Below are positions 28,944 to 44,959 of a DNA stretch of 64,000 nucleotides, one piece after another. A model generated the notes under the pieces. The model saw only the letters and a list, made by a program, of their open reading frames with translations. It did not search any database and was not told the DNA's origin. Numbering within the stretch: the first letter of the stretch is position 1; every line of letters begins with the position of its first letter. The position numbers were made by a program, and so were the translations under genes. The DNA comes from a virus: IMG/VR virus record IMGVR_UViG_3300027763_000040, positions 34,874-98,873 of that record; one strand, written 5' to 3'.

Positions 28944-31900
28944 TTACCACCAGGTTATTTTAACATATCCATTTCCACCCGAAGCACCATCTCCAAATCT
29001 ATTTTGTTCTTGAGAATATCCTCCACCACCTCCACCACCTCCACGAGTTCCAGCGCCACCATCTCCTGCCACAGATTGTGTTGTGGATGATGCAGTAGCA
29101 AGAGTTCCCGAAGGTCCAGCAGCAACAAATGAGGACCCATAAATCAATCTTGTAATATTAGTCGTACCAAATCCAGAAGATCTTACAATCCATGCGATTG
29201 CATCAGTTGAAGATCTGATTGCCCCACCAACACTACCAGCAACATAAATGTTATTAGTATAAGCAAGAGCATTAATCGCGGATGTACCAAATCCTGATGT
29301 TCTTAACGACCAAGTAATCGTATCCGTTGAAGTACTTAAGATTCCATTGTTTCCAGCAGCAACATAAGCACCGCCTAGACCACCATAGGTAAAGGCATTA
29401 ATCGCTGTTGTAGTAAATGTATTAAATCCAGAAGTTCTTATGGCCCAGTTGATATTATCAGTAGAGATCATAATATTGTATTCATTCAGAATATTTGTTG
29501 CTGATGCTACTGTGTAAAGTCCTTCTGAATCTAAAGCAGTGATTGATGTAGTATTATTTGCAGTTGTTCTAACTGTCCAGGTTATCGTATCTGTGGATGC
29601 TTGCAATAATCCGCCAGTACCGTAAGAAAGTAAAAGAGTTTGAGTAGAAGTTGCAATAGTCCCACCTCCACCACCGATTACATAAAGGTTATTGCCATAA
29701 GCACCACAAAAAATTGATGTTGCACCAAACCCAGATGTTCTTAATGCCCAAGTAATACCATCGGTCGATGTTCTTTGTTGTCCATTTGTCGTTGCAATAT
29801 AAAGACCATCATTATAAGTTAATCCATAGGAGTTAATAGCATTTATAAATCCAGTAGTTCTTAATATCCAGTTAATAGTATCGGTTGAAGTTGCAAGGTA
29901 TGTTGAGTTGCCTGAAGCAACTATAAATGTATTTGTTGGCAAAGATCCATAAACTGAAGAGAATAATTGAGAACCTGGGGATCCAGAAGTTCTTAAGGTC
30001 CAAGAAATCGTATCTGTAGAAGTTGCGATACCACCAGATCCACCAGTTGTATACAAATAAACTCCATTTCCATATGTAAATGTATAGGCATAAGATGGAA
30101 ATATAGCGGTTCTCAATTGCCAATTAATATTATCAGTAGATGCTGCTAAGAAATAATTTGTACTGAAGATTGAGTCATTTCCCCACCCTAAAGTAAAAGC
30201 ACCAGCGGAAGAAAATCCACCAGTTGAACCAAAATTTTCAGTTCCTAATGGTGCAGTTCTTGTGGTCCAAGATACAGAATCAGTTGATGCTCTTAAAAAT
30301 GCTCCATTACCATAAGAACTTAAAATTGTTTGAGTTGATGTTACCAAAGTACCAGAAGCACCTCCCATTATATAAGTATCAGTTCCATAAGCAAGTGTAT
30401 TAATATCAGAAATGCCAAATCCAGAAGTTCTTAAAATCCAAGTAATCGCATCAGTAGAAGTTCGAGTGGTTCCAGATGCACCAGCAGCAACATAAAGATT
30501 ACTATTATAAGCAAGAGTACTAATTGTGGATGCACCAAATCCTGATGTTCTTAAAGTCCAATTAATAGTATCTGTTGAAGTATTTAATATTCCATTGTTA
30601 CCACCAGCAACATAAACGATCCCATAACCAAAAGCATTAATCGCCGTCGCACCAAATCCAGAAGTTCTTAAAACCCAGTTAATGTTATCTGTAGAAACAA
30701 TTAAATTACCACTAATATTTCCTGAACTTACACCAGAAGCAAAAGAATAAGAACCACCAGAACCTAATGTAACAATATCTACAATCTGGGAATAAGTTCT
30801 CAAAGACCAAGATATTGAATCTGTAGAAGCACTCAAAAGTGAATAGATAGGATCAACAGAAGAGGCAGTTGATAGAGTGTTTGTTGCGTTAGATGCTATT
30901 AAAAATAGATTATTCCCAAAAGTAGATGCAAAAATTACTGTAGTACCGAAACCAGAACCTCTTAGAGTCCAAGTAATACCATCTGTAGAAGATGAATTAG
31001 TTCCAGAAGCGCCACCAGCGCCATAGGTATTATTACCATAAGAAAGTGTATTAATCTGAGAAGTACCAAATCCAGAAGTTCTTAAAGTCCAAGCAATTGT
31101 ATCTGTTGAAGATAATAAGGTTCCAGAAGCACCCCCAACAACATAAAGATTTGATCCATTATAAGCAAGTGTAAGAATATTGGAAGTACCAAACCCAGAG
31201 GTTCTCATAGTCCAAGCAATCGCATCCGTTGATACCGATATTGCACCACCAGCAGTTGCAGCAATGTAAGCATTGCTTCCATAAACAACAGCACTAATTG
31301 AAGATGTACCAAACCCTGTTGTTCTCAAAGTCCATTGAATAGCATTTGTAGAAGATATTAATCCTGCTATTCCACCAGATCTACCGCCAACATATTTTTC
31401 TGTTGGTGTTACACTATATGCGAGAGTAGAAACCACTCCACCACCAAGAAATCCACCAGTTCTTAAAGTCCAGTTAATTGTATCTGTTGAAGTTCTTATC
31501 TGTGGCCAAGAATCTCCAACAACATAGATACCGCCACCGAAGACCATCGTTTGCATAATTGATGCTGGGGCCGCGTTTGCAGAAGTTCTTAAAACCCATT
31601 GAATAGCATTTGTAGAAACTTGAACAGAAGCATTTGTTCCATAACCACCAGCAAGATAGAATCCATTACCAAATGTAAGAGCACCAAGACCCGTTGAAGT
31701 TCCAACAACTGTTCTCTGAGTCCATACTAATGGTTCCCCTCGACTATTAATTAAATATTCACCATTAAAGTAAGTAGAACTAACAATACCAGTTGATCCA
31801 AATCCTGATGTTCTTAAAGTCCAAGAGATTGTATCTGTTGAAGATATTAATGTTCCAAGAGATTCTCCCATATAGTTTGTTGTTGCTGCAACATAATAAC

Positions 31901-34900
31901 TACTACTTGAAGCAAGAGTAGTAATTGATTGAGTATTAGTGACCGTTGTTCTTAAGATCCAAGTAATTGCATCAGTAGAAGCAGCAAAATATGCTCCAGT
32001 ACCAAACGAAGATAAGATTGTTTGAGTTGATGTGACAATCACACCCGCAGCTGCGGCAGCAACATAGTTGGTTCCGTCAGATGCCATTTCAACAAAATCT
32101 TGTACTGTTCCAGAAGTTCTAGTAATCCAAGTGATTGTATCTGTAGAAGTTGCGATTCTTCCTCCAACAGACGCAGTAACATAAAGATTACTATTATATA
32201 CTAAACCATATATTCCACTTGTACCAAATCCAGAAGTTCTTAATACCCATTCAATACCATTCGTTGAAGATACTATTGAACCAGAGTTACTAGTGGCAGT
32301 ATAAGTACTTGATACATAAACTATATTTGTACAACCTCCACTCATAGGTGATGTTCTTGTTGTCCAAGCAATTCCATCTGTGGATGCTCTTAAAAGTGGT
32401 CCACTACCTCCAACATAATAGTCAGATCCATCATAAATAGCAGATACAATGCTAGATGTTCCAAATCCAGAAGTTCTGATTGTCCAGGCAATAGAATTGG
32501 TAGAAGAACTTAATCTACCACTTTGCCCAGCAATAATATATTTTTCAGTTTCACTAGACCCATAGGAAATAGATCCAATCCAAGAAGTTCCAAATCCTGA
32601 TGTTCTCAAAAACCAAGAAATCGTATCCGTAGAAGTAAGAAGACCTCCAGAAGTTACAGCACCACCAACAATAAAGTAGTTAGTTCCATCATAAGTTCCA
32701 GATTGTGTATCAAAAAATGGTGCTATAACAGGAGATGTTCTTGCGGTCCAGGACACACCATCTGTTGATGCTCTCAAAAATCCAGTGGATGTTACTGCAG
32801 CAACATAAAGACCATTTCCATATATTAATCCTTGTATTGTGGAAGTACCAAATCCTGAAGTTCTTAAAGTCCACATTACTGAGGGTGAATTTCCACCAAC
32901 ATAATAATTCGTACCTTTGAAACCAGATGCATTAATTGAACCAATAGTTCCAGAAGTTCTTAGAGTCCAAGTAATAGATGTAGAACTTCCTCCAATTAAA
33001 TATTCACCATTAAAATATGAATAAAAATTGATTCCACTGGATCCAAATCCAGAACTTCTTAATGACCAAGATACTCCATCTGTTGATGTAGAGATAAGAC
33101 CACCAGCAATTCCATTAGATCCTCCAATCAAAAACGAAGTTCCACCATAAATTGCATGAAAAATAGTAGGACTTGCCCCAAATCCAGAAGTTCTTAAAGT
33201 CCAAGTAACTAATGTTGATGCAGCACCACCAATCAGAAACTCATTATTAGAATAAGTAACTGCACTAATCGTAGTTGTTCCAAATCCAGTGGTTCGTGCG
33301 ATCCAGGTGATATTATCTGTAGAAGCAATCAAAGCAGTCTGAGAAATATAGTTTGTTCCCGCCGCAACATAGTAACTATTACTTGTAGATAATAATGTGA
33401 TTGTTTGAATATTGGAGTTAGTTCTTAAAGTCCAAGATACTCCATCAGTCGAAGCAGTTAGTAATCCACCATTTCCAAGAGAACTTAAAGTACTTTGTGT
33501 CGAAACTGCTAAAGTTCCTATATTACCACTAGCAATATAAGTGTTGTTATTATAAAAAATACTTAACATATTACTATTTAAGTTTGAAGTTCTCAAAATC
33601 CAAGTAATACCATCAGTTGAAGTTGTATTGGTTGGTCCTGCTCCGCCAGCAGTAAAAATACCACCATTATAAGCGATGGTATAGATTATATTAGAACCAA
33701 ATCCAGCAGTTCTTAAAGTCCAAGAAATGGTATCGGTGGATGTTGAAAGATATCCAGATGTTCCACCACCAACATAAAGATTAGATCCATTATAAGCAAA
33801 TGTATAGATGTTTTGCGTCGTTCCAGATGTTCTCAATATCCAAACAGTCGCATTAGTGGATACGAGAATCTGTGCTGGAGAAGAACTTGGTGAAACAACA
33901 TAAGGATTTGAAGCGCCAGTTGCATAGGTAAATGCAGCAGAATAACTCGTTACCGCTGTTGGTAAAGTTGCACTTTGAGTCCAAATAATAGAATCCGTAG
34001 AGTTAATAAAGATTGGTGGATTTGTGTTTGAACTCAAAATAGAAAATCTACCATCCACATAAAGCATACTTGAATATTGTGCCGCAGTAAATCCAGCAGT
34101 TCTTACCGTCCAGGTAATCGCATCAGTTGAAGCAGTGATCCACTGACCATTGCCACAAGCAACATATCTTCCAACACCATAAGCAACAGATCCAATCGCT
34201 GTTGTACCAAATCCAGAGGTTCTTAAAGTCCAAGTGATAGCATCTGTCGAAGACGCAAGAACTCCAGATTGAGCACAATAAAGATAAAGTGATGATCCAT
34301 CATAAGTAATCGGATATCCACCAGTGGTAAATCCACCAGGACCAATATTGGCAGATACTTGACCAGAAGTTCTTAAGACCCAGGTAATAGTTGGTGTAAA
34401 TCCTCCAGCAACATGGAAACTATTACCATATGTAAGCGCAGCAATCGCGGTTGTACCGAATCCAGAAGTTCTTAAATACCAACTATTGATTCCAGTCGAA
34501 AGTGCTCCTCCACCTCCACCACCAGATCCAATGTTTCCAGTATAAGATCCAGGAATACCATCAATGCCATTACCACCAGAAGCACTTCCTGCAGTATTAT
34601 ATGCATTTCTATAATAATATGTTAGAGAGTTTCCACCCGCTCTTGTATTAAATGCACCACCACCGCCACCAGTAACTTGATATGTATTTGATTGAATTGC
34701 ATTGTTTACACTTGCCCATGATGTTAATCCAGCACCACCAGCAAGACCAGCAGTAGTATAAAGTGGGTTTAAAGTCACTGCGGCTGCGGCACCTGCAGTT
34801 CCTGCAGTTACATCGGATGAAGATGCTCCAGTTCCTCCAGAAGATGTTAAGGTATAAGTAGCGGTTCCTGTTGGAGATTTTCCAGTCCAAGTTAGGGTTG

Positions 34901-37900
34901 TATTTCCACCAGATGTGGGTGTAATTAATAATCCCGATCCCCCAGCAAGAAAAACAGTTCCATAAGTAAGACCATAAAGTGAAGTTAATGCACTATTTGT
35001 TCTTAAAGTCCAAGTAATCGCATCAGTTGATGTTACAGTAGTACCACCATACTGATTGACAAAAATTCCAGAATTATAAATTACTCGATAAGATCCAATA
35101 GCATTTGGAGTAGTTCTAATTGTCCATCTAATTGTATCTGTGGAACTTGCAAGTTTATTAAATCCCGCTGCAATATGAATTCCATTACCATATGCCAAAT
35201 TGTTAAGTTGCTCTGCACCAATTCCAGATGTTCTTGCAGTCCAACGAATAGCATCAGTTGATACAAAAATATTACCATTAAGATCCCCAACAATATATGG
35301 AGTTGATTCCGAAGATACATAATTTGATGAAAGTATTGAACTTGATCCACCACAAGTTCTAATTGTCCAAGTAATAGCATCGGGACTTGTGATTATTGCC
35401 CCATTAACACCAGTCATAACATAAGTTCCACTTGGTGCAGTACCATACATTAAAGAATATTGGGTAGAGTTTGGAATTCCACTAACTCTTATAGTCCAAA
35501 CAATCGCATCAGTGGATGTCCCATAATAACTTGGAAATATTCCAACATCAGTTCCAAAAACATATAATGATCCCGAATAAATCAAAAGTGGGCCACCCCC
35601 TAAACTTCGTCCAATTCGAGTTGTTCCAAATCCAGATGTTCTCAAAATCCAAGTATTTGTATCAACAGATGTTGCAATTGTTCCAGAATCTCCAACTGCA
35701 ACATAAAGAGAATTTCCATATACAAGATGATTAATTGTAGTTGCTCCAAAAGCACTGTTTGTTCTGGTCCAAATAATCCCATCAGTACTACTAATCATTG
35801 TTTTAATATTACCACCAGTTCCTCCAGTACCTGGAGTTACTGTGATTGTGGGCGCATCTCCAAATTCTAGACGACGAATCAACCAAGAGTTATAAGCACC
35901 ACCACCTCCTCCACCACCAGATCCAACAGTTCCAGTTGCTTTTCCTGCTGCTCCGCCTCCACCAGCACCGATTGCTTCAATATAAATCTGAGATGCTGTT
36001 GGAGGAATATAAAAAGTTTGTGCTCCTGATGCAGTAAACTCCTGATATCCTCGATATATTGGAGAACCGATTGTACTAGATGTAGAGTTAATCGTTTGCC
36101 ACTGTTTTGCAGTTATATTGGAAACCGCAAGAGTTCCAGATACACCACCAGCAACAATCGAAGAACCATAAACAGAAGTTGTGATTGAAGTAGATCCAAA
36201 TCCACTAACTCTCGAAATCCAAGAGATTCCATCTGTAGATATTGCTAGTGTTCCCGCAGAACCAAAGGCAACAAATTGGGTTCCACCATAAAATAAACTA
36301 TTAATCGCCGTCGTACCAAATCCAGTTGTTCTTAAAGTCCAAGAGATTGTATCTGTAGAAGTTCTTAAGAGACCAGCATTGCCAGCAATAGTATAAGTAT
36401 TATTACCATAACCAAAAGCATTAATCGCCGTCGCACCAAATCCAGAAGTTCTTAAAACCCAGTTAATGTTATCTGTAGAAACATTTAAAAATCCAACTTC
36501 ACCCATATAGTTGGTTCCATGAGCAAAAGCATAAGAACCACCAGAACCTAGTGCAGTGATTGCTAGTGTATTAACTGCAGTTGTTCTAGAAGTCCAAGAA
36601 ACTCCATCAGTTGATGCCCGTAAAAGTGCTCCAGTTCCAAATGAAGATAAGATTGTTTGATTGGAAGTTTGTATGTCTCCAGTATTAGTACCAAAGACAT
36701 AGATATCATTTCCAACTCCAATCGTCGATATTGCAGTTGTACCAAATCCAGAAGTTCTTAAGACCCAAGTAATCGTATCAGTCGATGTTACAGTACTTCC
36801 ATTTTGACCAGCACCTACATAGACTCCATTATTATAAGTAAGTTGTAATAGTGATGTAGATCCGAGTCCAGAAGTTCTTAAGACCCAATGAATCGCATTC
36901 GTTGAAACGGTTATATATGTTGCACCACATCCAAGATATAGATTATTTGCATAGATTAATCCAACTAATGAGTTACCAGCACCAATCGCAGTAGTTCGAA
37001 TCACCCAAGCAATCGAATCTGTGGAAGATGATGTGAATGATGGTACAGATGCAACATATTTTTCAGTTGCATTTTGCCCATATGCCAAAGCATTAATGGT
37101 ACTTGTACCAAATCCTGTTGTTCTTAAGGTCCAAGAAATAGTATCTGTCGAAGATATAATAGTACCAGATGATCCTCCAGTAACATAAAGACTTCCACTA
37201 TATACGAATGTTGGTCCACTATTACCAACACTGTTTCCCAGAGTGGCAGTTGTTCCAACGGTTCTCGCTGTCCAGTTAATACTATCAGTCGAAACAAGAA
37301 CATTACCTTGATTCAAATAGTTATTTGATGTTGCAAGATAATATCCACCACCAGATGTTAAGGCAGTAATACCTTGAGTGTTGAGTCCTGCAGTTCTTAA
37401 TGCCCAAGAAATAGTATCGGTTGAAGCCCTTAAAATTGCACCATTACCAATCGATCCCAAAATACTTGTCGTTGATGTTGAAATTGTAGGTACTGAAAAT
37501 CCAGGTCCTGCCACCACAAAAGTATTATTACCATAAGTGGAGGTATATATTGTAGATGTACCAAATCCAGAAGTTCGTGCAATCCAAGTAATCGCATCAG
37601 TTGATGTTGCAGTATTTCCACCAGCACCACTCGCATTAAAAATTCCATTACCATAGGTCAATGCATACACATTGGCACCCATTGTACCTACAGTTCTTAA
37701 AACCCAACTAATACAATCCGTAGATGATGCAATATTAAACCCACCGATAACATATAAAGAATTTCCATAAGTGGAAGTAAAAATTGCATTAGCAGGAAAT
37801 CCAGTGGTTCTTAAAACCCAGTTAATTCCATCAGTGGAAGATGAAAATGATCTAGCAACATTAGTAGTTACGCCATATGTATTGATTGGGGTATTCCCAT

Positions 37901-38930
37901 AAACAATTGAATATATGCTAACAAATCCCAATCCAGTTGATCTTGCAAACCAACTAATTGAATCGGTAGAAGTTGAGAAATAACCTCCACTACCACCCAC
38001 AAGATAAACTCCATTTCCATAATTGATGAGAGGTCCAACATCAATAGCATTTGAATAATCTAAAGTAGTTCCAGAAGTTCTCTTAGTCCAAAAAATACCA
38101 TCTGTCGAAACTGTTATGGATCCAGCAAGACCAGTAGCAACATATAAATTATTACCATATCCAACATTATGAAGAGCAGTTGTACCATATCCCGTAGTTC
38201 TCGAAACCCAATTGACTGCATCGGTTGAAGTTAATAATACTGCTCCCGTTCCTCCTGCAAGATAAAGATTGTTTCCATATCCTAAAGAGTATGGAGTAAA
38301 TACTGTACCAAAAGTTCTTTGAGTCCAGGTTGTATAATCAGCATACCCACCAGCAAGATAGATTCCATTATTATATGCGATACTATAAATCGCTGTTGTA
38401 CCAAATCCTGAAGTTCTTAAAGTCCAAGAAACGGTTTCTGCTCTACCAGCAATCAAATATTCATTGTTAAAATATATTGATTTTGCAATATTAGTTGTAC
38501 CAAATCCTGATGTTCTTAAAGACCAGGAAACAGAATCAGTTGAAGAAGTTAAGGTTCCAGAAACTCCAGAAGCAACATAATTTGTTCCTGAAGATGCTAA
38601 GTTATTGATCGCGGAAGTACCGAATCCTGATGTTCTTAAGGACCAGGAAACAGTATCGGTTGAAGTTGTTAATGTTCCAGAATCTCCACCATTAACATAA
38701 ACAGTTCCATAAGTCGCAGCATTAATATTAGTAGTACCAAATCCAGAAGTTCTAAGTGTCCAGTAAAATGCTCCAGGATAAACACTTAAAAACTTACCAC
38801 CATTTCCAGATACAGATGGATATATTGGAGTACCAGTTAATACAGCATCTGCATAAGTCTTATTTGCCGCATCTGTTGTATTAACTACTGTACTAATACC
38901 AGTAATATTATTGCTGCCTAATATTGCCAT
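28944..38930 (-). CDS. Giant 3328-aa virion fibre/adhesin: Gly-rich scaffold carrying ten nested 7-repeat beta-propellers
   Basis: 70 repeats of about 40 aa (W..RTSGFG...Y..G..G....STD) with an Asp-box-like STD...W turn. N-terminal DAANKTYAD neck. Late promoter ATAAATA at 38952-38958. Confidence 0.8.
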   Translation of the reverse strand: MAILGSNNITGISTVVNTTDAANKTYADAVLTGTPIYPSVSGNGGKFLSVYPGAFYWTLRTSGFGTTNINAATYGTVYVNGGDSGTLTTSTDTVSWSLRTSGFGTSAINNLASSGTNYVASGVSGTLTSSTDSVSWSLRTSGFGTTNIAKSIYFNNEYLIAGRAETVSWTLRTSGFGTTAIYSIAYNNGIYLAGGYADYTTWTQRTFGTVFTPYSLGYGNNLYLAGGTGAVLLTSTDAVNWVSRTTGYGTTALHNVGYGNNLYVATGLAGSITVSTDGIFWTKRTSGTTLDYSNAIDVGPLINYGNGVYLVGGSGGYFSTSTDSISWFARSTGLGFVSIYSIVYGNTPINTYGVTTNVARSFSSSTDGINWVLRTTGFPANAIFTSTYGNSLYVIGGFNIASSTDCISWVLRTVGTMGANVYALTYGNGIFNASGAGGNTATSTDAITWIARTSGFGTSTIYTSTYGNNTFVVAGPGFSVPTISTSTTSILGSIGNGAILRASTDTISWALRTAGLNTQGITALTSGGGYYLATSNNYLNQGNVLVSTDSINWTARTVGTTATLGNSVGNSGPTFVYSGSLYVTGGSSGTIISSTDTISWTLRTTGFGTSTINALAYGQNATEKYVASVPSFTSSSTDSIAWVIRTTAIGAGNSLVGLIYANNLYLGCGATYITVSTNAIHWVLRTSGLGSTSLLQLTYNNGVYVGAGQNGSTVTSTDTITWVLRTSGFGTTAISTIGVGNDIYVFGTNTGDIQTSNQTILSSFGTGALLRASTDGVSWTSRTTAVNTLAITALGSGGSYAFAHGTNYMGEVGFLNVSTDNINWVLRTSGFGATAINAFGYGNNTYTIAGNAGLLRTSTDTISWTLRTTGFGTTAINSLFYGGTQFVAFGSAGTLAISTDGISWISRVSGFGSTSITTSVYGSSIVAGGVSGTLAVSNITAKQWQTINSTSSTIGSPIYRGYQEFTASGAQTFYIPPTASQIYIEAIGAGGGGAAGKATGTVGSGGGGGGGAYNSWLIRRLEFGDAPTITVTPGTGGTGGNIKTMISSTDGIIWTRTNSAFGATTINHLVYGNSLYVAVGDSGTIATSVDTNTWILRTSGFGTTRIGRSLGGGPLLIYSGSLYVFGTDVGIFPSYYGTSTDAIVWTIRVSGIPNSTQYSLMYGTAPSGTYVMTGVNGAIITSPDAITWTIRTCGGSSSILSSNYVSSESTPYIVGDLNGNIFVSTDAIRWTARTSGIGAEQLNNLAYGNGIHIAAGFNKLASSTDTIRWTIRTTPNAIGSYRVIYNSGIFVNQYGGTTVTSTDAITWTLRTNSALTSLYGLTYGTVFLAGGSGLLITPTSGGNTTLTWTGKSPTGTATYTLTSSGGTGASSSDVTAGTAGAAAAVTLNPLYTTAGLAGGAGLTSWASVNNAIQSNTYQVTGGGGGAFNTRAGGNSLTYYYRNAYNTAGSASGGNGIDGIPGSYTGNIGSGGGGGGALSTGINSWYLRTSGFGTTAIAALTYGNSFHVAGGFTPTITWVLRTSGQVSANIGPGGFTTGGYPITYDGSSLYLYCAQSGVLASSTDAITWTLRTSGFGTTAIGSVAYGVGRYVACGNGQWITASTDAITWTVRTAGFTAAQYSSMLYVDGRFSILSSNTNPPIFINSTDSIIWTQSATLPTAVTSYSAAFTYATGASNPYVVSPSSSPAQILVSTNATVWILRTSGTTQNIYTFAYNGSNLYVGGGTSGYLSTSTDTISWTLRTAGFGSNIIYTIAYNGGIFTAGGAGPTNTTSTDGITWILRTSNLNSNMLSIFYNNNTYIASGNIGTLAVSTQSTLSSLGNGGLLTASTDGVSWTLRTNSNIQTITLLSTSNSYYVAAGTNYISQTALIASTDNITWIARTTGFGTTTISAVTYSNNEFLIGGAASTLVTWTLRTSGFGASPTIFHAIYGGTSFLIGGSNGIAGGLISTSTDGVSWSLRSSGFGSSGINFYSYFNGEYLIGGSSTSITWTLRTSGTIGSINASGFKGTNYYVGGNSPSVMWTLRTSGFGTSTIQGLIYGNGLYVAAVTSTGFLRASTDGVSWTARTSPVIAPFFDTQSGTYDGTNYFIVGGAVTSGGLLTSTDTISWFLRTSGFGTSWIGSISYGSSETEKYIIAGQSGRLSSSTNSIAWTIRTSGFGTSSIVSAIYDGSDYYVGGSGPLLRASTDGIAWTTRTSPMSGGCTNIVYVSSTYTATSNSGSIVSSTNGIEWVLRTSGFGTSGIYGLVYNSNLYVTASVGGRIATSTDTITWITRTSGTVQDFVEMASDGTNYVAAAAAGVIVTSTQTILSSFGTGAYFAASTDAITWILRTTVTNTQSITTLASSSSYYVAATTNYMGESLGTLISSTDTISWTLRTSGFGSTGIVSSTYFNGEYLINSRGEPLVWTQRTVVGTSTGLGALTFGNGFYLAGGYGTNASVQVSTNAIQWVLRTSANAAPASIMQTMVFGGGIYVVGDSWPQIRTSTDTINWTLRTGGFLGGGVVSTLAYSVTPTEKYVGGRSGGIAGLISSTNAIQWTLRTTGFGTSSISAVVYGSNAYIAATAGGAISVSTDAIAWTMRTSGFGTSNILTLAYNGSNLYVVGGASGTLLSSTDTIAWTLRTSGFGTSQINTLSYGNNTYGAGGASGTNSSSTDGITWTLRGSGFGTTVIFASTFGNNLFLIASNATNTLSTASSVDPIYSLLSASTDSISWSLRTYSQIVDIVTLGSGGSYSFASGVSSGNISGNLIVSTDNINWVLRTSGFGATAINAFGYGIVYVAGGNNGILNTSTDTINWTLRTSGFGASTISTLAYNSNLYVAAGASGTTRTSTDAITWILRTSGFGISDINTLAYGTDTYIMGGASGTLVTSTQTILSSYGNGAFLRASTDSVSWTTRTAPLGTENFGSTGGFSSAGAFTLGWGNDSIFSTNYFLAASTDNINWQLRTAIFPSYAYTFTYGNGVYLYTTGGSGGIATSTDTISWTLRTSGSPGSQLFSSVYGSLPTNTFIVASGNSTYLATSTDTINWILRTTGFINAINSYGLTYNDGLYIATTNGQQRTSTDGITWALRTSGFGATSIFCGAYGNNLYVIGGGGGTIATSTQTLLLSYGTGGLLQASTDTITWTVRTTANNTTSITALDSEGLYTVASATNILNEYNIMISTDNINWAIRTSGFNTFTTTAINAFTYGGLGGAYVAAGNNGILSTSTDTITWSLRTSGFGTSAINALAYTNNIYVAGSVGGAIRSSTDAIAWIVRSSGFGTTNITRLIYGSSFVAAGPSGTLATASSTTQSVAGDGGAGTRGGGGGGGGYSQEQNRFGDGASGGNGYVKITWW

Positions 38931-38957
38931 TTATTCAACATTAATATAAGTTATTTA

Positions 38958-41684
38958 TTACCACCAGGTGATCCTCACAAATCCATCGCCACCATTTCCA
39001 CCATTCGCAAAAGTAGATCCAATGGCAGCACCTCCACCTCCACCACCTCCACGAGTTCCATTACCACCTGCGCCAGCACTTGATATACCAGCACCTCCTC
39101 CACCTCCACCAAAACCATAAGGAAGTGAAGTGATTGCAATACCAACTGCACCATTCGATCCTGTATTACTTCCACCAGCAGAGAAAATAGTATTGCCATA
39201 GAAAGTAATCGAACCACCACCACCTCCTGCGGAAGATGGTGTTCCTGCTCCACTACCACCGCCCGTTGATTGGAATGAGTTTGCCTGTGCCGTAGCAGAC
39301 ACTCCAACACCATTGATCGCAGTAACACCACCAGGGCCGCCAGCAGTTGTATAATAATAATTCGTGATATTTGTTTGAGCAATTCCAGCAACACCACCAG
39401 CACCACCACCATTTGCAACTAGTGTATAAGTTCCTCCAGGGCCAGTCCATGATATTGTTGTTCCTGCTCCTGCAGATCCAGAACTAGTTTCAGTTGTTGC
39501 TCCAGTTCCACCGACTCCAATATTTACACTTACATTTGAAGTTACTATAGATTTGGGAATATACCAAGAAGTATAAGAACCTCCAGAACCGCCAGTACCA
39601 GATAACTGAGATTGTGCAGTAATTAAAGATCCAGATACTCCAGCAACATAGTAATTATTATTCACAGATATTGATGATCTTAAAGATTGTGTCGTATTAG
39701 AAGTATTTACTCTCCAAACTATAGCATCTGTTGAGACATAAACTCCTCCATTATCACCTGCCAGAAGATAACTCAAAGATGCAGAAGAATATGAAAGAGT
39801 ATAGATTGAATCTCCAGAAAACCCTACAGTTCTTAGAGTCCAAGTGATTGCATCAGTTGAAGAGGTTAAGAATTTATCAGATCCTGCAGATACATAAACA
39901 GACCCATAAGTAAGTGTATTAATCGCGGAAGTACCGAATCCCGATGTTCTTAAGATCCAGGTAATAGTATCAGTTGAAGTATTTAAGATTCCATTATTAC
40001 CGCCAGCAACATAAACAGTTCCATAACTAAAGGCATTAATCGCAGTTGAACCAAATCCAGAAGTTCTTGCAATCCAGTTAATATTATCTGTAGAAACATT
40101 TAGGAATCCAATATCACCTCTATAGTTGGTTCCATGAGCAAAGGTATAAGAACCACCAGAACTTAGTAAAGTTACAGTTAATGTATTGAGTGCTGTAGTT
40201 CTTAAGACCCAAGTTATGCCATTAGTTGATGCTTGGAGACGGGCCCCAGTTCCAAATGAAGATAAGATTGTTTGATTGGAAGTTTGTATGACTCCAGAAC
40301 TTCCCCCAAAAACATATATGTCTTGACCAAAGATACTCGTATAAATGTCATTACCTGAAGGAGAAGTTCTCAATACCCATGCAATACCATCCGTAGAAGT
40401 TAGATTAGTTCCAGATGCACCAGCAGCAACATATAAGTTATTATTATGGGAAATGGTATAAAGATTACTTACAGTTCCAGAAGTCCTAAATGTCCATTGT
40501 ATGGCATTAGTAGAAGTTTCAATAAATCCCGAGTTGCCAACTATAGCATAAACAGAACCTACCGCAATATTGTTAAGCGTAGTGGTAGTTGAAGAAGTTC
40601 TGAATGTCCAGTATATGGTATTCGTCGAAGTTTGTATATATCCACTAATACCCGCAAGAACATAGTAGTTACTACTCAGAGTACTATAGATTCCAGAATA
40701 CACATAATTTGGATTCATTGGTACGGGACTAGTTCTTGTAAACCAACCAATACCATCAGTTGAAGTTGTTATTATTGCAGAAGCACTTAGATAAGTTGGA
40801 GTTGGTAAAGATCCATATAATACAGTATGTATTCCATAAATACCAGCAACCATAGGAGCATTGGTTCTTGTAGTCCATACGATTCCATTTGTAGAAGTTC
40901 CTGTTCCTCCGCTATTCGAATTATTAATGAACACATATAAATTATTCCCCAAAATAAGACCAGAACCAGCACCATTATTACCATTTCCAACTTGATTTAA
41001 AGGAGAAGAAATAGTTCTAAGTACCCAAGAAATAGTATCCGTGGAAGTTGCTAAATTTGAAGAATTTCCACCAGCAAAATAAGTATTATTAGCATAAAGA
41101 GATGCTAAAAAACCATTACCAGTTCCAGAAGTTCTTAAGACCCAGGTAATCGTTTCTACTCTTCCACCAATCAAATGTTCATTATTAAAGTAAGTTGCAC
41201 TATTAATATTGGTTGTTCCAAATCCTGAGGATCTTACAATCCAAGTGATTGTATCAGTTGAAGATCTCAATGCTCCTCCTGCTCCAGAAATAACATAAGT
41301 TGTTCCACCTGATGTAATATTTGAAATCGTCGTCGATCCAAAACCAGAAGTTCTTAATGACCAAGTAAGACCATTTTTTGCAAAAGTAGATCCAGTTGTT
41401 CCAGTACTTCCACCACCTCCAGCACCAACTGCCTCAACATATAAAAGATTTGCCTGAGAAGGCACTGTAAATGTTTGTGGAGATCCTGTTGTAGAAAACT
41501 CTTGATAGTTTGAAACATAATCCCATGAAACACTTGTACCATCAGTCGTAGTTAAAAACTCTCCATCATTTCCAGTTTGTGATGGCAATGTTGAAAGATT
41601 ATCGACATAAGACTTATAAACACCATCAGTTCCCTGAGTTGCTGTTGTAATGCCAGTAATAAAATTAGATCCTAGTATTGCCAT
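38958..41684 (-). CDS. 908-aa paralogous fibre/adhesin (two propellers, one nested in the other, on a Gly-rich scaffold)
   Basis: Same N-terminus (MAILGSN.ITGI), 14 repeats, and C-terminus GG.G.V.ITWW. Confidence 0.8.
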   Translation of the reverse strand: MAILGSNFITGITTATQGTDGVYKSYVDNLSTLPSQTGNDGEFLTTTDGTSVSWDYVSNYQEFSTTGSPQTFTVPSQANLLYVEAVGAGGGGSTGTTGSTFAKNGLTWSLRTSGFGSTTISNITSGGTTYVISGAGGALRSSTDTITWIVRSSGFGTTNINSATYFNNEHLIGGRVETITWVLRTSGTGNGFLASLYANNTYFAGGNSSNLATSTDTISWVLRTISSPLNQVGNGNNGAGSGLILGNNLYVFINNSNSGGTGTSTNGIVWTTRTNAPMVAGIYGIHTVLYGSLPTPTYLSASAIITTSTDGIGWFTRTSPVPMNPNYVYSGIYSTLSSNYYVLAGISGYIQTSTNTIYWTFRTSSTTTTLNNIAVGSVYAIVGNSGFIETSTNAIQWTFRTSGTVSNLYTISHNNNLYVAAGASGTNLTSTDGIAWVLRTSPSGNDIYTSIFGQDIYVFGGSSGVIQTSNQTILSSFGTGARLQASTNGITWVLRTTALNTLTVTLLSSGGSYTFAHGTNYRGDIGFLNVSTDNINWIARTSGFGSTAINAFSYGTVYVAGGNNGILNTSTDTITWILRTSGFGTSAINTLTYGSVYVSAGSDKFLTSSTDAITWTLRTVGFSGDSIYTLSYSSASLSYLLAGDNGGVYVSTDAIVWRVNTSNTTQSLRSSISVNNNYYVAGVSGSLITAQSQLSGTGGSGGSYTSWYIPKSIVTSNVSVNIGVGGTGATTETSSGSAGAGTTISWTGPGGTYTLVANGGGAGGVAGIAQTNITNYYYTTAGGPGGVTAINGVGVSATAQANSFQSTGGGSGAGTPSSAGGGGGSITFYGNTIFSAGGSNTGSNGAVGIAITSLPYGFGGGGGGAGISSAGAGGNGTRGGGGGGGAAIGSTFANGGNGGDGFVRITWW

Positions 41685-41694
41685 TTATTTTCTC

Positions 41695-44439
41695 CTATTG
41701 CCAACTAATACGAACATAACCATCACCACCATTTCCACCAAATCCTGGAACAGTGCTTGCACCATCATATGCTCCACCACCACCACCGCCTCCACAAACT
41801 CCATTTCCACCACGGCCCGCCTTTGTTGCAGTCGTCGCAATCATATCTGAACCACTGCTCACAAGTAGAAAAATATTATTTCCAAAACACCCACCACTGA
41901 CATTACCACCATTAACCCATCCACCAGTTCTTAAGTGCCAAGTAAAAGAATCGATAGATGCATGAACATAATTAGAATTGCCAGCAGCAATATAAGTCCC
42001 ACCACCATAAATTGAAGCATATGGATCACTACTTAAAGTTCTCACAATCCAAGTAATGGTATCAGTAGAAGTAGAAACACTATTACCACTTCTATTAGAT
42101 GCTATAAATCTTCCATTGCCATATGCCAATGATGAAACATCGCCAATACCGCCTATACCCAAAGTTCTTGCAATCCAAACAATACCATTTGTAGATACAT
42201 TAATCACTCTAGAAGCTGCTCCAAGAATATATTGATCATTATCATAAATTATAGAATAAATTTGTCCCGTTGTTCCAGCAGTTCTTAGTTGCCAAACAAT
42301 GGCATCCGTAGAAGCAATTAGAGCACCAGAGGCGCCAACACCATAAAAAAATCCACCTTGATATGACAAAGAAGGTCCAGAAAAAGTACTTCCAATTTGA
42401 TTTGCAGTTCCAGATGATCTAAATGTCCAGTTGATTGAATCAGTAGAACTTCTTAATCCAGAGTTTCCATCAATCACATAAACACCATTACCATAAACTA
42501 CCCCCAAAATTACACTAGCACCATAAGAAGAAGTTCTCAAAACCCAAACAATACTATCGGTAGAGAATCCCAAGCGGCCACCATCACCACCATAAATGTA
42601 ATTTGATCCATCATAATAAGTCGTATAAAGAACAATACCACCGGTATTGGCAGTTCTTAATCTCCAAAAACTTCCGCCAAGAGCATTCGAACTTCCACCA
42701 TTTCCACCATAACCATAAGAAAGTCCAGTAATGTTTGTTGCACTTGTACCATTCATATTTCTCTGATCTAATGTGGAAGATACAGTATTTCCATAATAGT
42801 TAATTGTACCTCCCAAAGATCCATAAGATCCATAAAAATTTGAACTATTTGTGTTAGAGTTAGAAACTGCTCCACCACCACCACCAGTAGTTTGAAAAGA
42901 TGAAGTTGCAGTTGTTGCATTTGATGGTACTTGAAGTGCCTCAAAAATACCACCATTACCACCAGCAGTTCCAGCAGATGCTTGAAGATAATTTGATGAT
43001 GCCGTTATTGTACCTCCTGCCCCACCAGGAAGTGATTGAGTTGAAGAGTTATATACATTAGTTCCAGCACTTCCACCATTTGCAGTTATAGAAAAGTTTC
43101 CTCCAGGTCCTGCCCAAGATACTACACTCGAATCTCCAGATGCTCCATATACACCACCTTTTCCAACTTTAACGGTTAATGTAGTGCCACTAATATATGC
43201 TTTTGAAATATTCCAAGATGCCGCTGCTCCTCCACCTCCACCACTTCCAGCAAATCCAGTAGGAGGTAAAGCAGCACCAATATATCCAGAATCACCACCG
43301 ACAACAAAAGTATTATTGCCATATACCACTCCTTTCCAACCACTACCAAAAGCACCTGGTGAAGTTCTGAATGACCAAGTAACAGTATCAGTAGAAAAGA
43401 ATATAAATCCAGCACCACCAACAGCATAATAAGTATTATTCGCAAAAGTTGTTGCATATAAAGATTGTAAATAACTTACACTAGTTCTTGCAGTCCAAGT
43501 AACTGCATCTGTAGAAACAATTATATCGGCAGATGTACCAGTAGCAAAATAAAGACCATTTCCATAAGATACACTAATATAAAAATTATTATTAACTCCA
43601 GTTCTAATTACCCAAGTAATACTATCTGTAGAAGTTTGAAATCTTCCAGAACCACCACTAGTAACATATTGATCTCCAGCATAAAGAATTCTATATATTG
43701 CATTTCCGGTAGGATATCCAGAAGTTCTTAAGGACCAGGTAATGCCATTTGTAGAAGCAAAAATACGAGCATCATTATCTAAACCAAGAACATAAATGCC
43801 ATTATTAAATTCTAAAGCATTAAGTCTAGCAGTACTGGCACCTGTTGTTTGCATTGTCCAAGTGATACTATCAGTAGAGGTAATTAATTTTCCAGCATTA
43901 CCACATACAACATAAAGATTTCCACTATACACGATAGAACCAATTGCAGTTGCACCAAATCCACTTGTTCTCGTAATCCAAGTAATTGCATCAGTAGAAG
44001 CAAGAACTGCTCCACCATCAGTTCCTGCATAAAATACATTGTTCGCATATATCATTCCTGGACCCTGATAATACCCTGAAATACTATTAGAATGACTAGA
44101 AGTTCTTAAAAACCATTGCCCAGCACCAGTGTTCACATAAGAAGATGCATCTCTAGTTCCTGATGCTCCACTCCCTCCAGCACCCGTTGCTTCTATGAAC
44201 AGTTGTTTTGCTTGAGACGGTACATTAAAGGTATACGTTCCAGCAGCAATATATTCTTGATATGATCCTACTGGTTGCCAAGATGAAGTATTGCCATTAG
44301 TGGTTAAAAAGTTATTATCTTGATTTGTTATTGGTGGACCAGATGCAGAAATATCCACATATTGCTTATTTACGGCATCAGACGCATTAGATACCGAATC
44401 AATACCAGTAACTTGAGTAGAACCTACACCGACTGGCAT
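41695..44439 (-). CDS. 914-aa paralogous fibre/adhesin (two un-nested propellers on a Gly-rich scaffold)
   Basis: DAVNKQYVD neck, YQEY...TF.VP...IEA.GAGG, 7+7 repeats, C-terminus GGDGYVRISWQ. Confidence 0.8.
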   Translation of the reverse strand: MPVGVGSTQVTGIDSVSNASDAVNKQYVDISASGPPITNQDNNFLTTNGNTSSWQPVGSYQEYIAAGTYTFNVPSQAKQLFIEATGAGGSGASGTRDASSYVNTGAGQWFLRTSSHSNSISGYYQGPGMIYANNVFYAGTDGGAVLASTDAITWITRTSGFGATAIGSIVYSGNLYVVCGNAGKLITSTDSITWTMQTTGASTARLNALEFNNGIYVLGLDNDARIFASTNGITWSLRTSGYPTGNAIYRILYAGDQYVTSGGSGRFQTSTDSITWVIRTGVNNNFYISVSYGNGLYFATGTSADIIVSTDAVTWTARTSVSYLQSLYATTFANNTYYAVGGAGFIFFSTDTVTWSFRTSPGAFGSGWKGVVYGNNTFVVGGDSGYIGAALPPTGFAGSGGGGGAAASWNISKAYISGTTLTVKVGKGGVYGASGDSSVVSWAGPGGNFSITANGGSAGTNVYNSSTQSLPGGAGGTITASSNYLQASAGTAGGNGGIFEALQVPSNATTATSSFQTTGGGGGAVSNSNTNSSNFYGSYGSLGGTINYYGNTVSSTLDQRNMNGTSATNITGLSYGYGGNGGSSNALGGSFWRLRTANTGGIVLYTTYYDGSNYIYGGDGGRLGFSTDSIVWVLRTSSYGASVILGVVYGNGVYVIDGNSGLRSSTDSINWTFRSSGTANQIGSTFSGPSLSYQGGFFYGVGASGALIASTDAIVWQLRTAGTTGQIYSIIYDNDQYILGAASRVINVSTNGIVWIARTLGIGGIGDVSSLAYGNGRFIASNRSGNSVSTSTDTITWIVRTLSSDPYASIYGGGTYIAAGNSNYVHASIDSFTWHLRTGGWVNGGNVSGGCFGNNIFLLVSSGSDMIATTATKAGRGGNGVCGGGGGGGAYDGASTVPGFGGNGGDGYVRISWQ

Positions 44440-44440
44440 A

Positions 44441-44959
44441 TCAACTTCCCTCTAGTTTTTCTTTCAGTTTTTGTATTTCTATATTTTGTTCCTTGATTGC
44501 TTCAATTAATAGGGCAATAAGATTTGCATAAGCAACAGATTTTTTTTCATAATCTGGTGCGGGTCCTTTGGGATATACAATCTCAGGTACAATTTTTTCA
44601 ACTTCCTGTGCGATTAAACCGATTTGATGTTCTCCATTGTCTATGCGGTCATATTCAACCCCTCTCAGTGCCAATACCTTTTCAAGAGCATTTTCAAGAG
44701 GTTTAATATTTTTTTTAAGTCTTTCGTCAGAGTTTGCAGTAACTGTTCCAGAAACAACAATGTTTCCTGCTGTTGTATTATTTGCAACTCCAACTCCAAG
44801 TCCACCAGAAATATAAGCACTACCAGTTACTTGAAGTGGTTGAGATGCTGTTCCTGTAGATGTTGCAGTTCCCACTAATATTGGTCCAGAAGTAACTTGA
44901 AGTTTATTATCAACAGTTGCATCACCATAGATTCTTGTACCAGATTTAAGTTTTGCCAT
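44441..44959 (-). CDS. Short fibre protein with a C-terminal peptidase S74 intramolecular chaperone domain
   Basis: SDERLKKNI, LRGV.Y, GLIAQEVE...PE.V and V.Y..L..LLIEAIKE followed by a coiled coil. Confidence 0.9.
   Translation of the reverse strand: MAKLKSGTRIYGDATVDNKLQVTSGPILVGTATSTGTASQPLQVTGSAYISGGLGVGVANNTTAGNIVVSGTVTANSDERLKKNIKPLENALEKVLALRGVEYDRIDNGEHQIGLIAQEVEKIVPEIVYPKGPAPDYEKKSVAYANLIALLIEAIKEQNIEIQKLKEKLEGS

What the first reader, a model, noticed from the sequence alone, without database searches (positions are those of the whole stretch)
28944..44439. Three paralogues show a plug-in scaffold with 0, 1 and 7 nested insertions and several sockets
All three share a neck, an FL....W hairpin and one Gly-rich domain (YQE...TF..P....EA.GAGG ... 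SW.I ... W.G ... GG.G.V.I.W). Propellers are plugged into different loops. In the 914-aa protein: after GAGG and before the last Gly strands, 7+7, un-nested. In the 908-aa protein: after GAGG, 7 containing another 7. In the 3328-aa protein: in the N-terminal hairpin, after TVTPG.GG, and before the last Gly strands. That is 14 propellers in total. The series looks like snapshots of a combinatorial host-range diversification system with no recombinase or reverse transcriptase visible in the window.
Basis: partly seen in the sequence, partly recalled or inferred. Interest (0 to 1): 0.78.

Follow-up and report, generated by a model that had tools for sequence, protein, structure and literature searches.

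The report
Phage fibre proteins with nested propellers
Three neighbouring genes of an uncultured freshwater T4-like cyanophage encode fibre-like proteins that share one small glycine-rich head, into whose loops 2, 2 and 10 seven-bladed beta-propellers are plugged, some nested inside one another up to four deep, an architecture I found described nowhere in the searched literature.

Summary
The three ORFs (914, 908 and 3328 aa, minus strand) share a neck, an FL....W hairpin and one Gly_rich_2 (PF21722) domain. This scaffold is interrupted by 14, 14 and 70 blades, which is 14 propellers of 7.

With the blades removed, the scaffolds (343, 320 and 349 aa) align colinearly with each other and with natural blade-free homologues of 304-321 aa. 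A blade-free homologue is predicted to form a trimer.

Four recurrent sockets exist:
- H: the hairpin turn.
- A: after GAGGGG.
- B: after PGxGGxGG.
- D: before the last Gly strands.

Nesting is supported by four independent lines, but not by a confident structure model of my own:
- A bracket parse of short and long blades gives exactly 7 blades for every propeller.
- Blade identity between orthologues splits exactly at the parse boundaries.
- The ESM Atlas model of the 908-aa protein aligns to single propellers either contiguously or across a roughly 300-residue excursion.
- Orthologues differ by whole-propeller indels.

Twenty-four related viral contigs carry the same gene array, with cargo sizes of 0 to 42 blades in multiples of 7. 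Socket choice is fixed for each gene.

This is therefore evolutionary modularity, most likely driven by homologous recombination, and not a dedicated diversification machine. A role in binding the host is inferred, not shown. Other first-reader notes of this scan covered the same stretch.

The parts
41695..44439 (-). Gene 1, P0003 (914 aa). Scaffold with one 7-bladed propeller in socket A and one in socket D, not nested.
44137..44439 (-). P0003 aa 1-101: neck, FL....W hairpin and the first strands of Gly_rich_2, up to GAGG.
   Evidence: (strands 43-47, 52-56, 59-63, 67-72, 79-85)
43276..44136 (-). P0003 aa 102-388: propeller in socket A (7 blades).
42688..43275 (-). P0003 aa 389-584: middle of Gly_rich_2 (profile 33-204).
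41836..42687 (-). P0003 aa 585-868: propeller in socket D (7 blades).
41695..41835 (-). P0003 aa 869-914: last Gly strands (profile 178-225), ending GGDGYVRISWQ.
38958..41684 (-). Gene 2, P0002 (908 aa). Scaffold with 14 blades in socket A, read as a 7-bladed propeller nested in the B-C turn of blade 2 of another.
41145..41384 (-). P0002 aa 101-180: N-terminal part of the outer propeller (closing D strand, blade 1, strands A-B of blade 2).
   Evidence: (75-82% identical to the orthologue)
40257..41144 (-). P0002 aa 181-476: inner propeller (blades 3-9).
   Evidence: 36-59% identical; Atlas alignments 184-472, 186-474, 184-498
39621..40256 (-). P0002 aa 477-688: return linker QTILSSFGTGA, strands C-D of outer blade 2, and outer blades 10-14.
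   Evidence: (73-90% identical)
38958..39620 (-). P0002 aa 689-908: uninterrupted remainder of Gly_rich_2 (profile 31-225).
28944..38930 (-). Gene 3, P0001 (3328 aa). Scaffold with 21 blades in socket H, 7 in socket B and 42 in socket D, which is 10 propellers with 7 nested insertions and a depth of up to 4.
36126..38783 (-). P0001 aa 50-935: cargo of socket H in the hairpin turn. Three propellers, parsed as ..((......).....)....
35793..36125 (-). P0001 aa 936-1046: second hairpin strand and Gly_rich_2 profile 1-74, up to TVTPGTGGTGG.
34920..35792 (-). P0001 aa 1047-1337: single propeller in socket B.
34503..34919 (-). P0001 aa 1338-1476: middle of the Gly-rich domain. It aligns with the other scaffolds, but this piece gave no Pfam hit when searched alone.
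29097..34502 (-). P0001 aa 1477-3278: cargo of socket D. Six propellers, parsed as (......).(.((......).(......)...)....)....
28944..29096 (-). P0001 aa 3279-3328: last Gly strands (profile 174-225), ending GGNGYVKITWW.

Best explanation
The three genes are paralogous virion fibre or adhesin proteins of an uncultured freshwater T4-like cyanomyovirus.

Scaffold. Each is built on a fibre of about 310 aa. It has an N-terminal neck and a beta-hairpin that form the core of a predicted homotrimer, followed by a Gly_rich_2 head domain.

Cargo. Four surface loops of this scaffold (H, A, B, D) accept whole seven-bladed DUF6242_C/BNR-type beta-propellers. A propeller closes with a 'velcro' blade: one N-terminal D strand pairs with the C-terminal A-B-C strands. 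Its two ends therefore lie side by side, and it fits into a tight turn.

Nesting. The same trick is used recursively. In 'host' propellers the B-C turn of a blade is opened (the short blade FNNEYLIGGRxETxxW). A complete propeller is made there. The chain then returns through the linker QTILSSFGTGA to supply strands C and D. This gives 2, 2 and 10 propellers per chain, or 6, 6 and 30 per trimer if the trimer prediction holds.

Origin of the variation. New propellers arise, are lost or are swapped by homologous recombination or gene conversion between the similar junction and blade sequences. Selection keeps only products in which every propeller has 7 blades.

Function. The propellers most likely act as multivalent binders of host-surface glycans or proteins, so their number and identity tune adsorption and host range.

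Shown: the scaffold, the sockets, the blade counts, variation among relatives and the conversion tracts. Strongly inferred: the nesting topology and the trimer. Inferred from context only: virion location, ligand binding and any host-range effect.
For: Genomic setting. psbA, gp32 and tail genes are present, and the neighbours are fibre-like genes (Peptidase_S74, collagen-like, Laminin_G_3).

Scaffold.
- Pfam pieces map in order around the insertions.
- Stripped scaffolds align with each other.
- Natural bare homologues of 304-321 aa, without blades, align with them.
- Gly_rich_2 is found at the C-terminus of proteins that carry Phage_tail_fib, Mtd_N, DUF5907 or DUF2793. The Atlas model of P0002 690-908 matches bare clusters at TM 0.84.

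Trimer. Three copies of the bare homologue P0182 score ipSAE 0.75, against 0.00 for the best of 3 controls. Partner pLDDT is at least 87, and the runs agree in at least 88% of their contacts. In the calibration the mark was reached by 20 of 30 solved pairs and 1 of 23 single chains. The calibration used two copies, and my own alignment was used. The interface lies mainly in residues 1-62.

Propellers.
- The P0003 model (pLDDT 69.5) shows two sets of seven four-stranded blades, each opening with a lone first strand.
- Foldseek matches double propellers, including GH74 enzymes, and phage tail-fibre propellers.

Nesting.
- The bracket parse gives all-sevens in P0001, P0002, L005 and other loci, including a 42-blade group in L009. 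0 of 2,000,000 shuffles do so for the 42-blade group of P0001.
- P0002 against its orthologue: outer blades are 73-90% identical and inner blades 36-59%.
- In the Atlas model, single propellers align either to 184-472/498, or to 101-694 with only 254-318 residues aligned (TM by row 0.63-0.78).
- P0001 and its orthologue are 88-91% identical in the flanks, and P0001 has about 303 extra residues exactly at the blade-41 socket.

Sockets and cargo in relatives. Of 76 homologues, 49 use D, 48 use A, 21 use B and 20 use H. Cargo is mostly 7, 14, 21, 35 or 42 blades. 24 viral loci share the gene array.

Recombination. Exact runs of 78 and 45 nt lie in a 68-73% identical background.
Against: - No confident 3D model shows a nested pair. 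My AlphaFold2 model of P0002 failed (pLDDT 34.5). The Atlas model is of modest quality (pLDDT 0.67, pTM 0.37), and only the first and last aligned residues are reported.
- The parse thresholds are crude. They fail on 7 of 15 multi-propeller groups in other loci, most of them visibly cut by a locus end or split into two ORFs.
- The propeller family match is below Pfam's cut-off in the copy used (DUF6242, 25.2 bits against 29).
- There is no evidence that the proteins are in the virion, that they bind anything, or that propeller number changes host range.
- No cultured phage among 50,697 records carries the family, so no experimental anchor exists.
- UvsX/RecA was not found in the partial record, so the recombination machinery is assumed from the T4-like kinship.
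Confidence: 0.62

Rival explanations
1. The blades form ordinary tandem propellers (1-7, 8-14 and so on). The short and long blades are only loop-length variants, and nothing is nested.
For: Tandem double propellers are the common case, and they are the best Foldseek matches of the P0003 model. My AlphaFold2 model of P0002 gave no confident topology.
Against: - The all-sevens parse recurs in independent proteins and is not reached by shuffles.
- Orthologue identity changes at about residues 180 and 490 of P0002, not at about 396.
- No listed Atlas alignment spans 101-395 or 396-690, as tandem propellers would give. The listed spans are about 184-472/498 or about 101-694 with roughly 300 residues skipped, plus a few intermediates such as 179-522 and 179-695.
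- The whole-propeller indel between orthologues sits at a predicted socket.
- The short blades lack exactly strand C, and the long blades carry one extra strand plus a linker.
Confidence: 0.06
2. The array is a dedicated, actively operating diversification system. Propeller cassettes would be shuffled in a programmed way within a phage population.
For: - Junction sequences are conserved at every socket.
- Exact conversion tracts of 78 and 45 nt are present.
- Orthologues that are about 90% identical differ by whole propellers.
- One in-frame contig joint from another lake sample links two 'open' junctions. It skips 1532 nt with 26 nt in between and has a side of 73.
Against: - No reverse transcriptase is found in the record, and no invertase-like feature was seen.
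- Socket use is fixed for each gene across 24 loci.
- Junction modules are only 59-73% identical at DNA level.
- Genes 1 and 2 keep their architecture at 48-72% protein identity.
- The contigs laid are short, and joints in repeats are unreliable.
Confidence: 0.07
3. The proteins are in the virion or are secreted, but the propellers are enzymes rather than receptor-binding modules, for example glycoside hydrolases or depolymerases of the GH74 or sialidase kind. Alternatively they serve non-specific adherence or environmental sensing, like whiskers or capsid decoration.
For: - The blades carry an Asp-box-like motif, STDxIxW.
- GH74 xyloglucanases are among the structural matches.
- One BFVD match is annotated beta-1,4-xyloglucan hydrolase.
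- A glycosyltransferase island lies directly downstream.
Against: - No hydrolase family is hit by sequence.
- The nearest families (DUF6242_C, PSII_BNR/Ycf48, EPTP) are non-enzymatic binding or assembly propellers.
- Ten catalytic domains in one chain would be unusual, whereas multivalent binding is common in fibres.
Confidence: 0.2

Closest known systems
Phage tail-fibre proteins with a C-terminal Gly_rich_2 (PF21722) domain, seen with Phage_tail_fib, Mtd_N, DUF5907 or DUF2793 N-terminal parts
   Same: The head domain is the same: Pfam hits and TM 0.81-0.84 to those clusters. The position at the C-terminal end of a fibre-like protein and the phage origin also match.
   Different: In those proteins the domain is contiguous. 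Here it is interrupted at up to three loops, and the preceding hairpin at a fourth, by 7 to 42 propeller blades.
Seven-bladed BNR/Asp-box-type propellers: DUF6242_C, Ycf48/PSII_BNR, Sortilin-Vps10 and the GH74 double propellers
   Same: Four-stranded blades of about 40 aa with an S-T-D-x-x-x-W turn between strands C and D, seven blades, and velcro closure.
   Different: The known multi-propeller members are tandem. Here propellers sit inside loops of another domain and inside blades of other propellers. Pfam's cut-off is not reached in the copy used.
Domain insertions into beta-propeller loops, for example the integrin alpha I domain (recalled from general knowledge, not tested here)
   Same: A folded domain emerges from a loop of a propeller and returns to complete it.
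   Different: In those cases the insert is a different fold and there is a single level. Here the insert is the same fold, at a conserved B-C turn, repeated recursively to four levels. Full-text searches for nested or inserted propellers found no such description.
Diversity-generating retroelement targets such as Mtd
   Same: Phage receptor-binding proteins whose distal part varies. Mtd_N co-occurs with Gly_rich_2 in some Atlas clusters.
   Different: No reverse transcriptase is present. The variation here is in whole domains, not in adenine-templated point changes.
ALK/LTK glycine-rich (TNF-like plus polyglycine) domain
   Same: A neighbouring 329-aa ORF (49026-50015) matches it at E 1.6e-9. 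The scaffold shares the opening motif G.Q.F..P.....I.A.GAGG.
   Different: The scaffold profile A3 finds no ALK chain in the PDB (best E 0.29, to an unrelated protein). It aligns to the neighbour over only 22 columns (E 0.068). Kinship is therefore not shown.

Membership tests
Gly_rich_2 (PF21722) domain proteins | Match to the Pfam model above its gathering score (24.3 bits) | tested here: met
   P0002 scores 27.7 bits as a whole protein. P0003 scores 23.3 as a whole but 38.2 for its middle piece alone. The P0001 piece 966-1043 scores 34.5. The own-genome search gave 26.3 bits.
Gly_rich_2 (PF21722) domain proteins | One contiguous domain of about 226 positions | tested here: not met
   The profile is covered in order but in 2 or 3 pieces, separated by 290 to 1800 residues of propeller. 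Natural contiguous relatives exist.
DUF6242_C / PSII_BNR seven-bladed propellers | Sequence match to the family model | tested here: inconclusive
   DUF6242 scores 25.2 bits, below the 29-bit cut-off, and only in P0003. PF25852 is precomputed on many homologues. Atlas feature scores of 0.77-0.79 are leads only.
DUF6242_C / PSII_BNR seven-bladed propellers | Seven four-stranded blades closing a ring | tested here: met
   Blade counts are 7 per unit. The P0003 model has 2 x 7 blades at pLDDT about 70-88. Foldseek matches propellers at E down to 5e-17.
Trimeric phage tail fibres | Homotrimer through the N-terminal part | tested here: met
   This is a prediction only. Three copies of the bare homologue P0182 score ipSAE 0.75 against 0.00 for the best control, with pLDDT at least 87 and at least 88% of contacts shared between runs. 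The interface covers residues 1-62. The calibration (20 of 30 solved pairs, 1 of 23 single chains) used two copies, and my own alignment was used.
Trimeric phage tail fibres | Presence in the virion and attachment to baseplate or tail | not testable with these tools
   Only gene neighbourhood is available.
Diversity-generating retroelements | Reverse transcriptase near the variable gene | tested here: not met
   There is no RVT_1 match in the 98.9-kb record. The record is estimated to be 47% complete.
ALK/LTK glycine-rich domain | Detectable sequence kinship to solved ALK/LTK chains | tested here: not met
   Neither profile A3 nor the P0002 C-terminal part finds ALK/LTK. Only the neighbouring ORF at 49026-50015 does.

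The most novel reading that the evidence does not exclude
The split blade with its cargo (open junction, propeller, return linker, 'special' next blade) behaves as a self-propagating cassette. By gene conversion it can turn any ordinary blade into a new socket. If so, the phage lineage would hold a recursive, enzyme-free generator of receptor-binding valency. It would produce fractal-like proteins and would operate fast enough to create standing architectural variation within natural populations.
Probability: 0.22. Interest if true: 0.88.

Novelty: new variant of a known kind. Interest (0 to 1): 0.74.

Why it matters
Domain insertion is common, but I found no report of recursive self-insertion of one fold to four levels, with every unit keeping exactly seven blades.

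If a structure confirms it, this family would be a natural example of how far nested folding can go. It would also define rules for loop sockets and velcro-closed inserts that protein engineers could copy.

For phage biology it defines a widespread, unannotated family. It was found in more than 200 metagenomic proteins and 24 viral contigs, and in none of 50,697 phage GenBank records (mostly cultured isolates). These are probable receptor-binding fibres in cyanophage-like viruses, and their valency changes in steps of one propeller. That makes the evolution of adsorption and host range directly testable.

Tried and rejected
- AlphaFold2 of P0002 with a 13-row alignment gave mean pLDDT 34.5 and no usable topology.
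Strand pairing and the adjacency of chain ends could not be measured.
Context was obtained through the search for related loci instead.
- The search for related loci with alignment A1 chose poly-Gly patterns and found almost nothing.
- tblastn against 50,697 phage records found only weak propeller matches.
- phmmer and profile searches of the PDB with the Gly-rich part found no relative. hhalign to the neighbouring ALK-like ORF was not significant.
- NCBIfam gave only a weak BamI propeller match.
- A scaffold HMM run on whole proteins misaligned into the blades. It was replaced by stripping the blades first and then running hmmalign.
- Laying Logan contigs of four freshwater runs gave short pieces. 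Most joints had sides of about 20 letters, which is unreliable in repeats. The single better joint (32867 to 34400) is only a hint. Uncovered parts mean nothing.
- No RecA/UvsX was found in the partial record. This says nothing about the whole genome.
- A split-chain complementation job for the outer propeller was considered and dropped. Any seven homologous blades might assemble, so a pass would not discriminate between the models.
- Literature searches for the Pfam names, for nested or inserted propellers and for cyanophage Ycf48 fibres found nothing relevant.
Full report
**Setting**

The window is part of a 98,873-nt IMG/VR virus record, estimated to be 47% complete. It has the content of a T4-like cyanomyovirus: psbA, a gp32-type SSB and tail proteins. 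Its nucleotide similarity is limited to Synechococcus and Prochlorococcus myoviruses. The runs that hold the stretch are freshwater and lake metagenomes.

The finding covers three consecutive minus-strand ORFs separated by 10 and 27 nt: P0003 (41695-44439, 914 aa), P0002 (38958-41684, 908 aa) and P0001 (28944-38930, 3328 aa). Their neighbours are fibre-like genes:
- a small ORF with a Peptidase_S74 chaperone domain;
- collagen-like proteins;
- Laminin_G_3 proteins;
- a large 'virion structural protein'.

Glycosyltransferase-like genes lie downstream.

All three proteins carry a repeat of about 40 aa with the consensus TSTDAITWTLRTSGFGTSTIYSLTYGNGLYVAGGNSGTLI. An HMM built from it finds 14, 14 and 70 copies. 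The copies are grouped as follows, which gives 98 blades, or 14 sets of seven:
- P0003: 7 | 7
- P0002: 14
- P0001: 21 | 7 | 42

The sequence between the groups belongs to one Gly_rich_2 domain, and the pieces match consecutive parts of the Pfam profile:

| Protein | Residues | PF21722 profile |
|---|---|---|
| P0002 | 66-98 | 2-33 |
| P0002 | 691-907 | 31-225 |
| P0003 | 398-585 | 33-204 |
| P0003 | 873-913 | 178-225 |
| P0001 | 966-1043 | 1-74 |
| P0001 | 3283-3327 | 174-225 |

After the blades are removed in silico, the remainders (349, 320 and 343 aa) align colinearly from the first residue to the terminal GGxGYVxIxW.

Moreover, natural proteins of 304-321 aa with the same neck, hairpin and Gly-rich domain and no blades exist in metagenomes. 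They align with the stripped scaffolds over their whole length.

**Sockets**

I stripped the blades from 110 homologues and aligned what remained to a profile of the natural bare scaffolds. Four recurrent insertion points appeared:

| Socket | Profile position | Location | Homologues using it (of 76) |
|---|---|---|---|
| H | about 46-52 | turn of the FL....W hairpin | 20 |
| A | about 95-101 | after GAGGGG | 48 |
| B | about 141-149 | after PGxGGxGG | 21 |
| D | about 267-275 | before the last Gly strands | 49 |

The counts are for the 76 homologues whose stripped scaffold is 290-400 aa long. Cargo is almost always 7, 14, 21, 35 or 42 blades. Values of 6, 13, 20, 27 and 34 are probably one missed blade.

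The window proteins read A7+D7, A14 and H21+B7+D42. P0001 is the largest complete form I saw.

**Nesting**

In P0001 and P0002 some blades are short and others long.
- Short blades are 32-34 aa (for example FNNEYLIGGRxETxxW) and lack the stretch that forms strand C.
- Long blades are 54-60 aa and carry an extra QTILSSFGTGAxLxAS. They are always followed by a distinctive blade (NTxxITxLxSxxxY...NY...STDNINW).

In the P0003 model each repeat runs W-strand, then A, B and C. A blade is therefore A-B-C plus the next W-strand as D. Each propeller opens with a lone D strand, which I read as velcro closure.

I read short blades as 'open' and long blades as 'close'. The chain then parses as follows:
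- P0002: .(......).....
- P0001: ..((......).....).... | ....... | (......).(.((......).(......)...)....)....

Every one of the 12 propellers in these two proteins gets exactly seven blades, and the depth reaches four. Random placement of the same brackets reaches an all-sevens parse in the following fractions of shuffles:
- 42-blade group: 0 of 2,000,000
- 21-blade group: 1770 of 1,000,000
- P0002: 38,681 of 1,000,000

The same signature recurs in at least 15 metagenomic homologues and in other viral loci. Examples are a 42-blade hairpin cargo in L009.(((......).(......)...).(......)...)....., and a 28-blade cargo in L019.

Three further lines are independent of the spacing rule.
- **Orthologue identity.** In the orthologue of P0002 on a related contig (L005), the seven outer blades (1, 2, 10-14) are 73-90% identical. 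The seven inner blades (3-9) are 36-59% identical. The break therefore falls at about residues 180 and 490, not at the tandem boundary of about 396.
- **Atlas model.** The ESM Atlas holds its own model of P0002 (pLDDT 0.67). Single-propeller clusters align to it in two ways. Some align over 184-472, 186-474 or 184-498, with about 272 residues aligned. Others align over 104-675, 117-678, 102-691 or 101-694, with only 254-318 residues aligned and a TM by row of 0.63-0.78. The second pattern is what a ring made of two distant segments would give.
- **Whole-propeller indels.** P0001 and its 2719-aa orthologue are 88-91% identical over long blocks. P0001 has about 303 extra residues at 1990-2358, the predicted socket in blade 41, and about 303 more within the hairpin cargo. 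The orthologue itself parses to eight propellers of seven.

My own AlphaFold2 model of P0002 was unusable. The topology is therefore strongly inferred, not seen.

**The scaffold is probably a trimeric fibre head**

Gly_rich_2 occurs at the C-terminus of proteins that carry Phage_tail_fib, Mtd_N, DUF5907 or DUF2793. P0002 690-908 matches such bare clusters at TM 0.81-0.84.

Three copies of the bare homologue P0182 were folded with controls:
- Score: ipSAE 0.75, against 0.00 for the best of three controls.
- Confidence: partner pLDDT at least 87, with runs agreeing in at least 88% of contacts.
- Calibration: the mark was reached by 20 of 30 solved pairs and 1 of 23 single chains. That calibration used two copies, and my own alignment was used here.
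- Interface: mainly residues 1-62, which are the neck and the hairpin.

This supports a trimer but does not show one. No solved structure is related by sequence.

**Relatives**

The family is large but anonymous:
- 186 proteins of 499-1589 aa at E <= 1e-5;
- 50 proteins of 1830 aa or more;
- 21 short proteins.

All are 'hypothetical'. No comparable protein was found in 50,697 phage GenBank records.

Twenty-four IMG/VR contigs carry the same array:
- Gene 1: usually A7+D7, sometimes with 14 to 28 blades before D7.
- Gene 2: bare, A7, A14 or A7+D7.
- Gene 3: H7+B7+D7 in its basic form of about 1185 aa. Other forms are H21+B7+D7, H14+B7+D35, H42+B7+D>=23, H7+B7+D42 and B7+D7.

Sockets are thus fixed for each gene, while the number of propellers per socket varies widely.

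Other cargo also occurs in relatives. P0005-7 have a 182-aa non-blade insert inside the outer propeller. The P0086 group has Laminin_G_3.

**How the variation arises**

No reverse transcriptase is found in the record. The eight exit-junction modules are 59-73% identical at DNA level, so most duplications are old. Exact runs of 78 nt (within P0001) and 45 nt (between P0001 and P0002) lie in a 68-73% identical background, which marks recent short gene conversion.

A single unequal crossover cannot create a valid nested product. Conversion of an ordinary blade by a cargo-bearing blade, using homology on both sides, can. That would explain why every socket has the same flanks. This step is inference.

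Contigs from other lakes were too short to show architectural variants reliably. One in-frame joint linking two open junctions is a hint only.

**Function**

Nothing here measures function. The evidence available is indirect:
- the position among fibre genes;
- the fibre-type head domain;
- the predicted trimer;
- the occurrence of similar propellers in annotated phage tail fibres.

Together these make a multivalent host-surface binder the best reading. An enzymatic (GH74 or sialidase-like) role or a non-specific adherence role remains open.

**Verdict**

The 'plug-in scaffold' idea is supported and extended, with natural bare scaffolds, four sockets and a conserved gene array. The 'combinatorial diversification system' is reduced to slow, recombination-driven modular evolution. 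The recursive nesting of one fold, if a structure confirms it, is the remarkable part.

Other first-reader notes of this scan on the same stretch proposed the nested tree and the junction identities. I tested both here.

Noticed in passing
window 49026-50015 (-): This 329-aa ORF matches the glycine-rich (TNF-like/polyglycine) ectodomain of ALK/LTK receptors (7lir E 1.6e-9, 7nx0 E 5.9e-9). It ends in GDGYLIVTRI. It is a second, different Gly-rich domain protein in the same structural module.
   Followed up: partly
window 44441-44980 (-): A small fibre-like ORF, probably starting at MAKLKSG just after the stop of the 1012-aa gene, with a Peptidase_S74 intramolecular chaperone domain. Its last 108 aa are 72% identical to the C-terminus of a 2049-aa protein at the same position in L005. 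The 1012-aa protein has no match there.
   Followed up: partly
window 30622-30696 and 36406-36480; also 36406-36705 vs 40021-40320: There is an exact DNA identity of 75-78 nt between two distant blades of the 3328-aa gene. A 45-nt exact run links it to the 908-aa gene, within 68-81% identical surroundings. These look like short gene-conversion tracts.
   Followed up: yes
P0005, P0006, P0007 (metagenome homologues of P0002): About 182 aa of non-blade sequence with no Pfam match is inserted between blades 12 and 13 of the outer propeller. Foreign domains can therefore also be plugged into blades.
   Followed up: partly
P0181 (438 aa, metagenome): This homologue has only three blades in socket A. 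It may be an assembly artefact. Alternatively, three blades per chain could form a shared ring in a trimer.
   Followed up: no
L012 and L013, 10769-15913 and 15997-20730: The giant third gene is split into two ORFs (1714 + 1577 aa) in two contigs. This may be a frameshift, a stop codon or a sequencing error inside the repeats.
   Followed up: no
window 32867-34400: A contig from another lake sample (run X6, depth 41) joins these two places with 26 other letters between them. It removes 1506 nt net, in frame, and links the open junction of blade 29 to that of blade 41. It could be a natural variant or a chimera made by the assembler in repeats.
   Followed up: partly
window 26816-28898 and further downstream to about 17900: Several glycosyltransferase-like and methyltransferase-like genes (phrog_1574 twice, phrog_2835, phrog_2170, phrog_2675) lie directly downstream of the Ser/Thr-rich fibre genes. 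Fibre glycosylation is conceivable.
   Followed up: no
whole window: The runs that hold this DNA are freshwater and lake metagenomes from several studies and years. The phage is therefore a freshwater relative of the marine T4-like cyanophages.
   Followed up: partly
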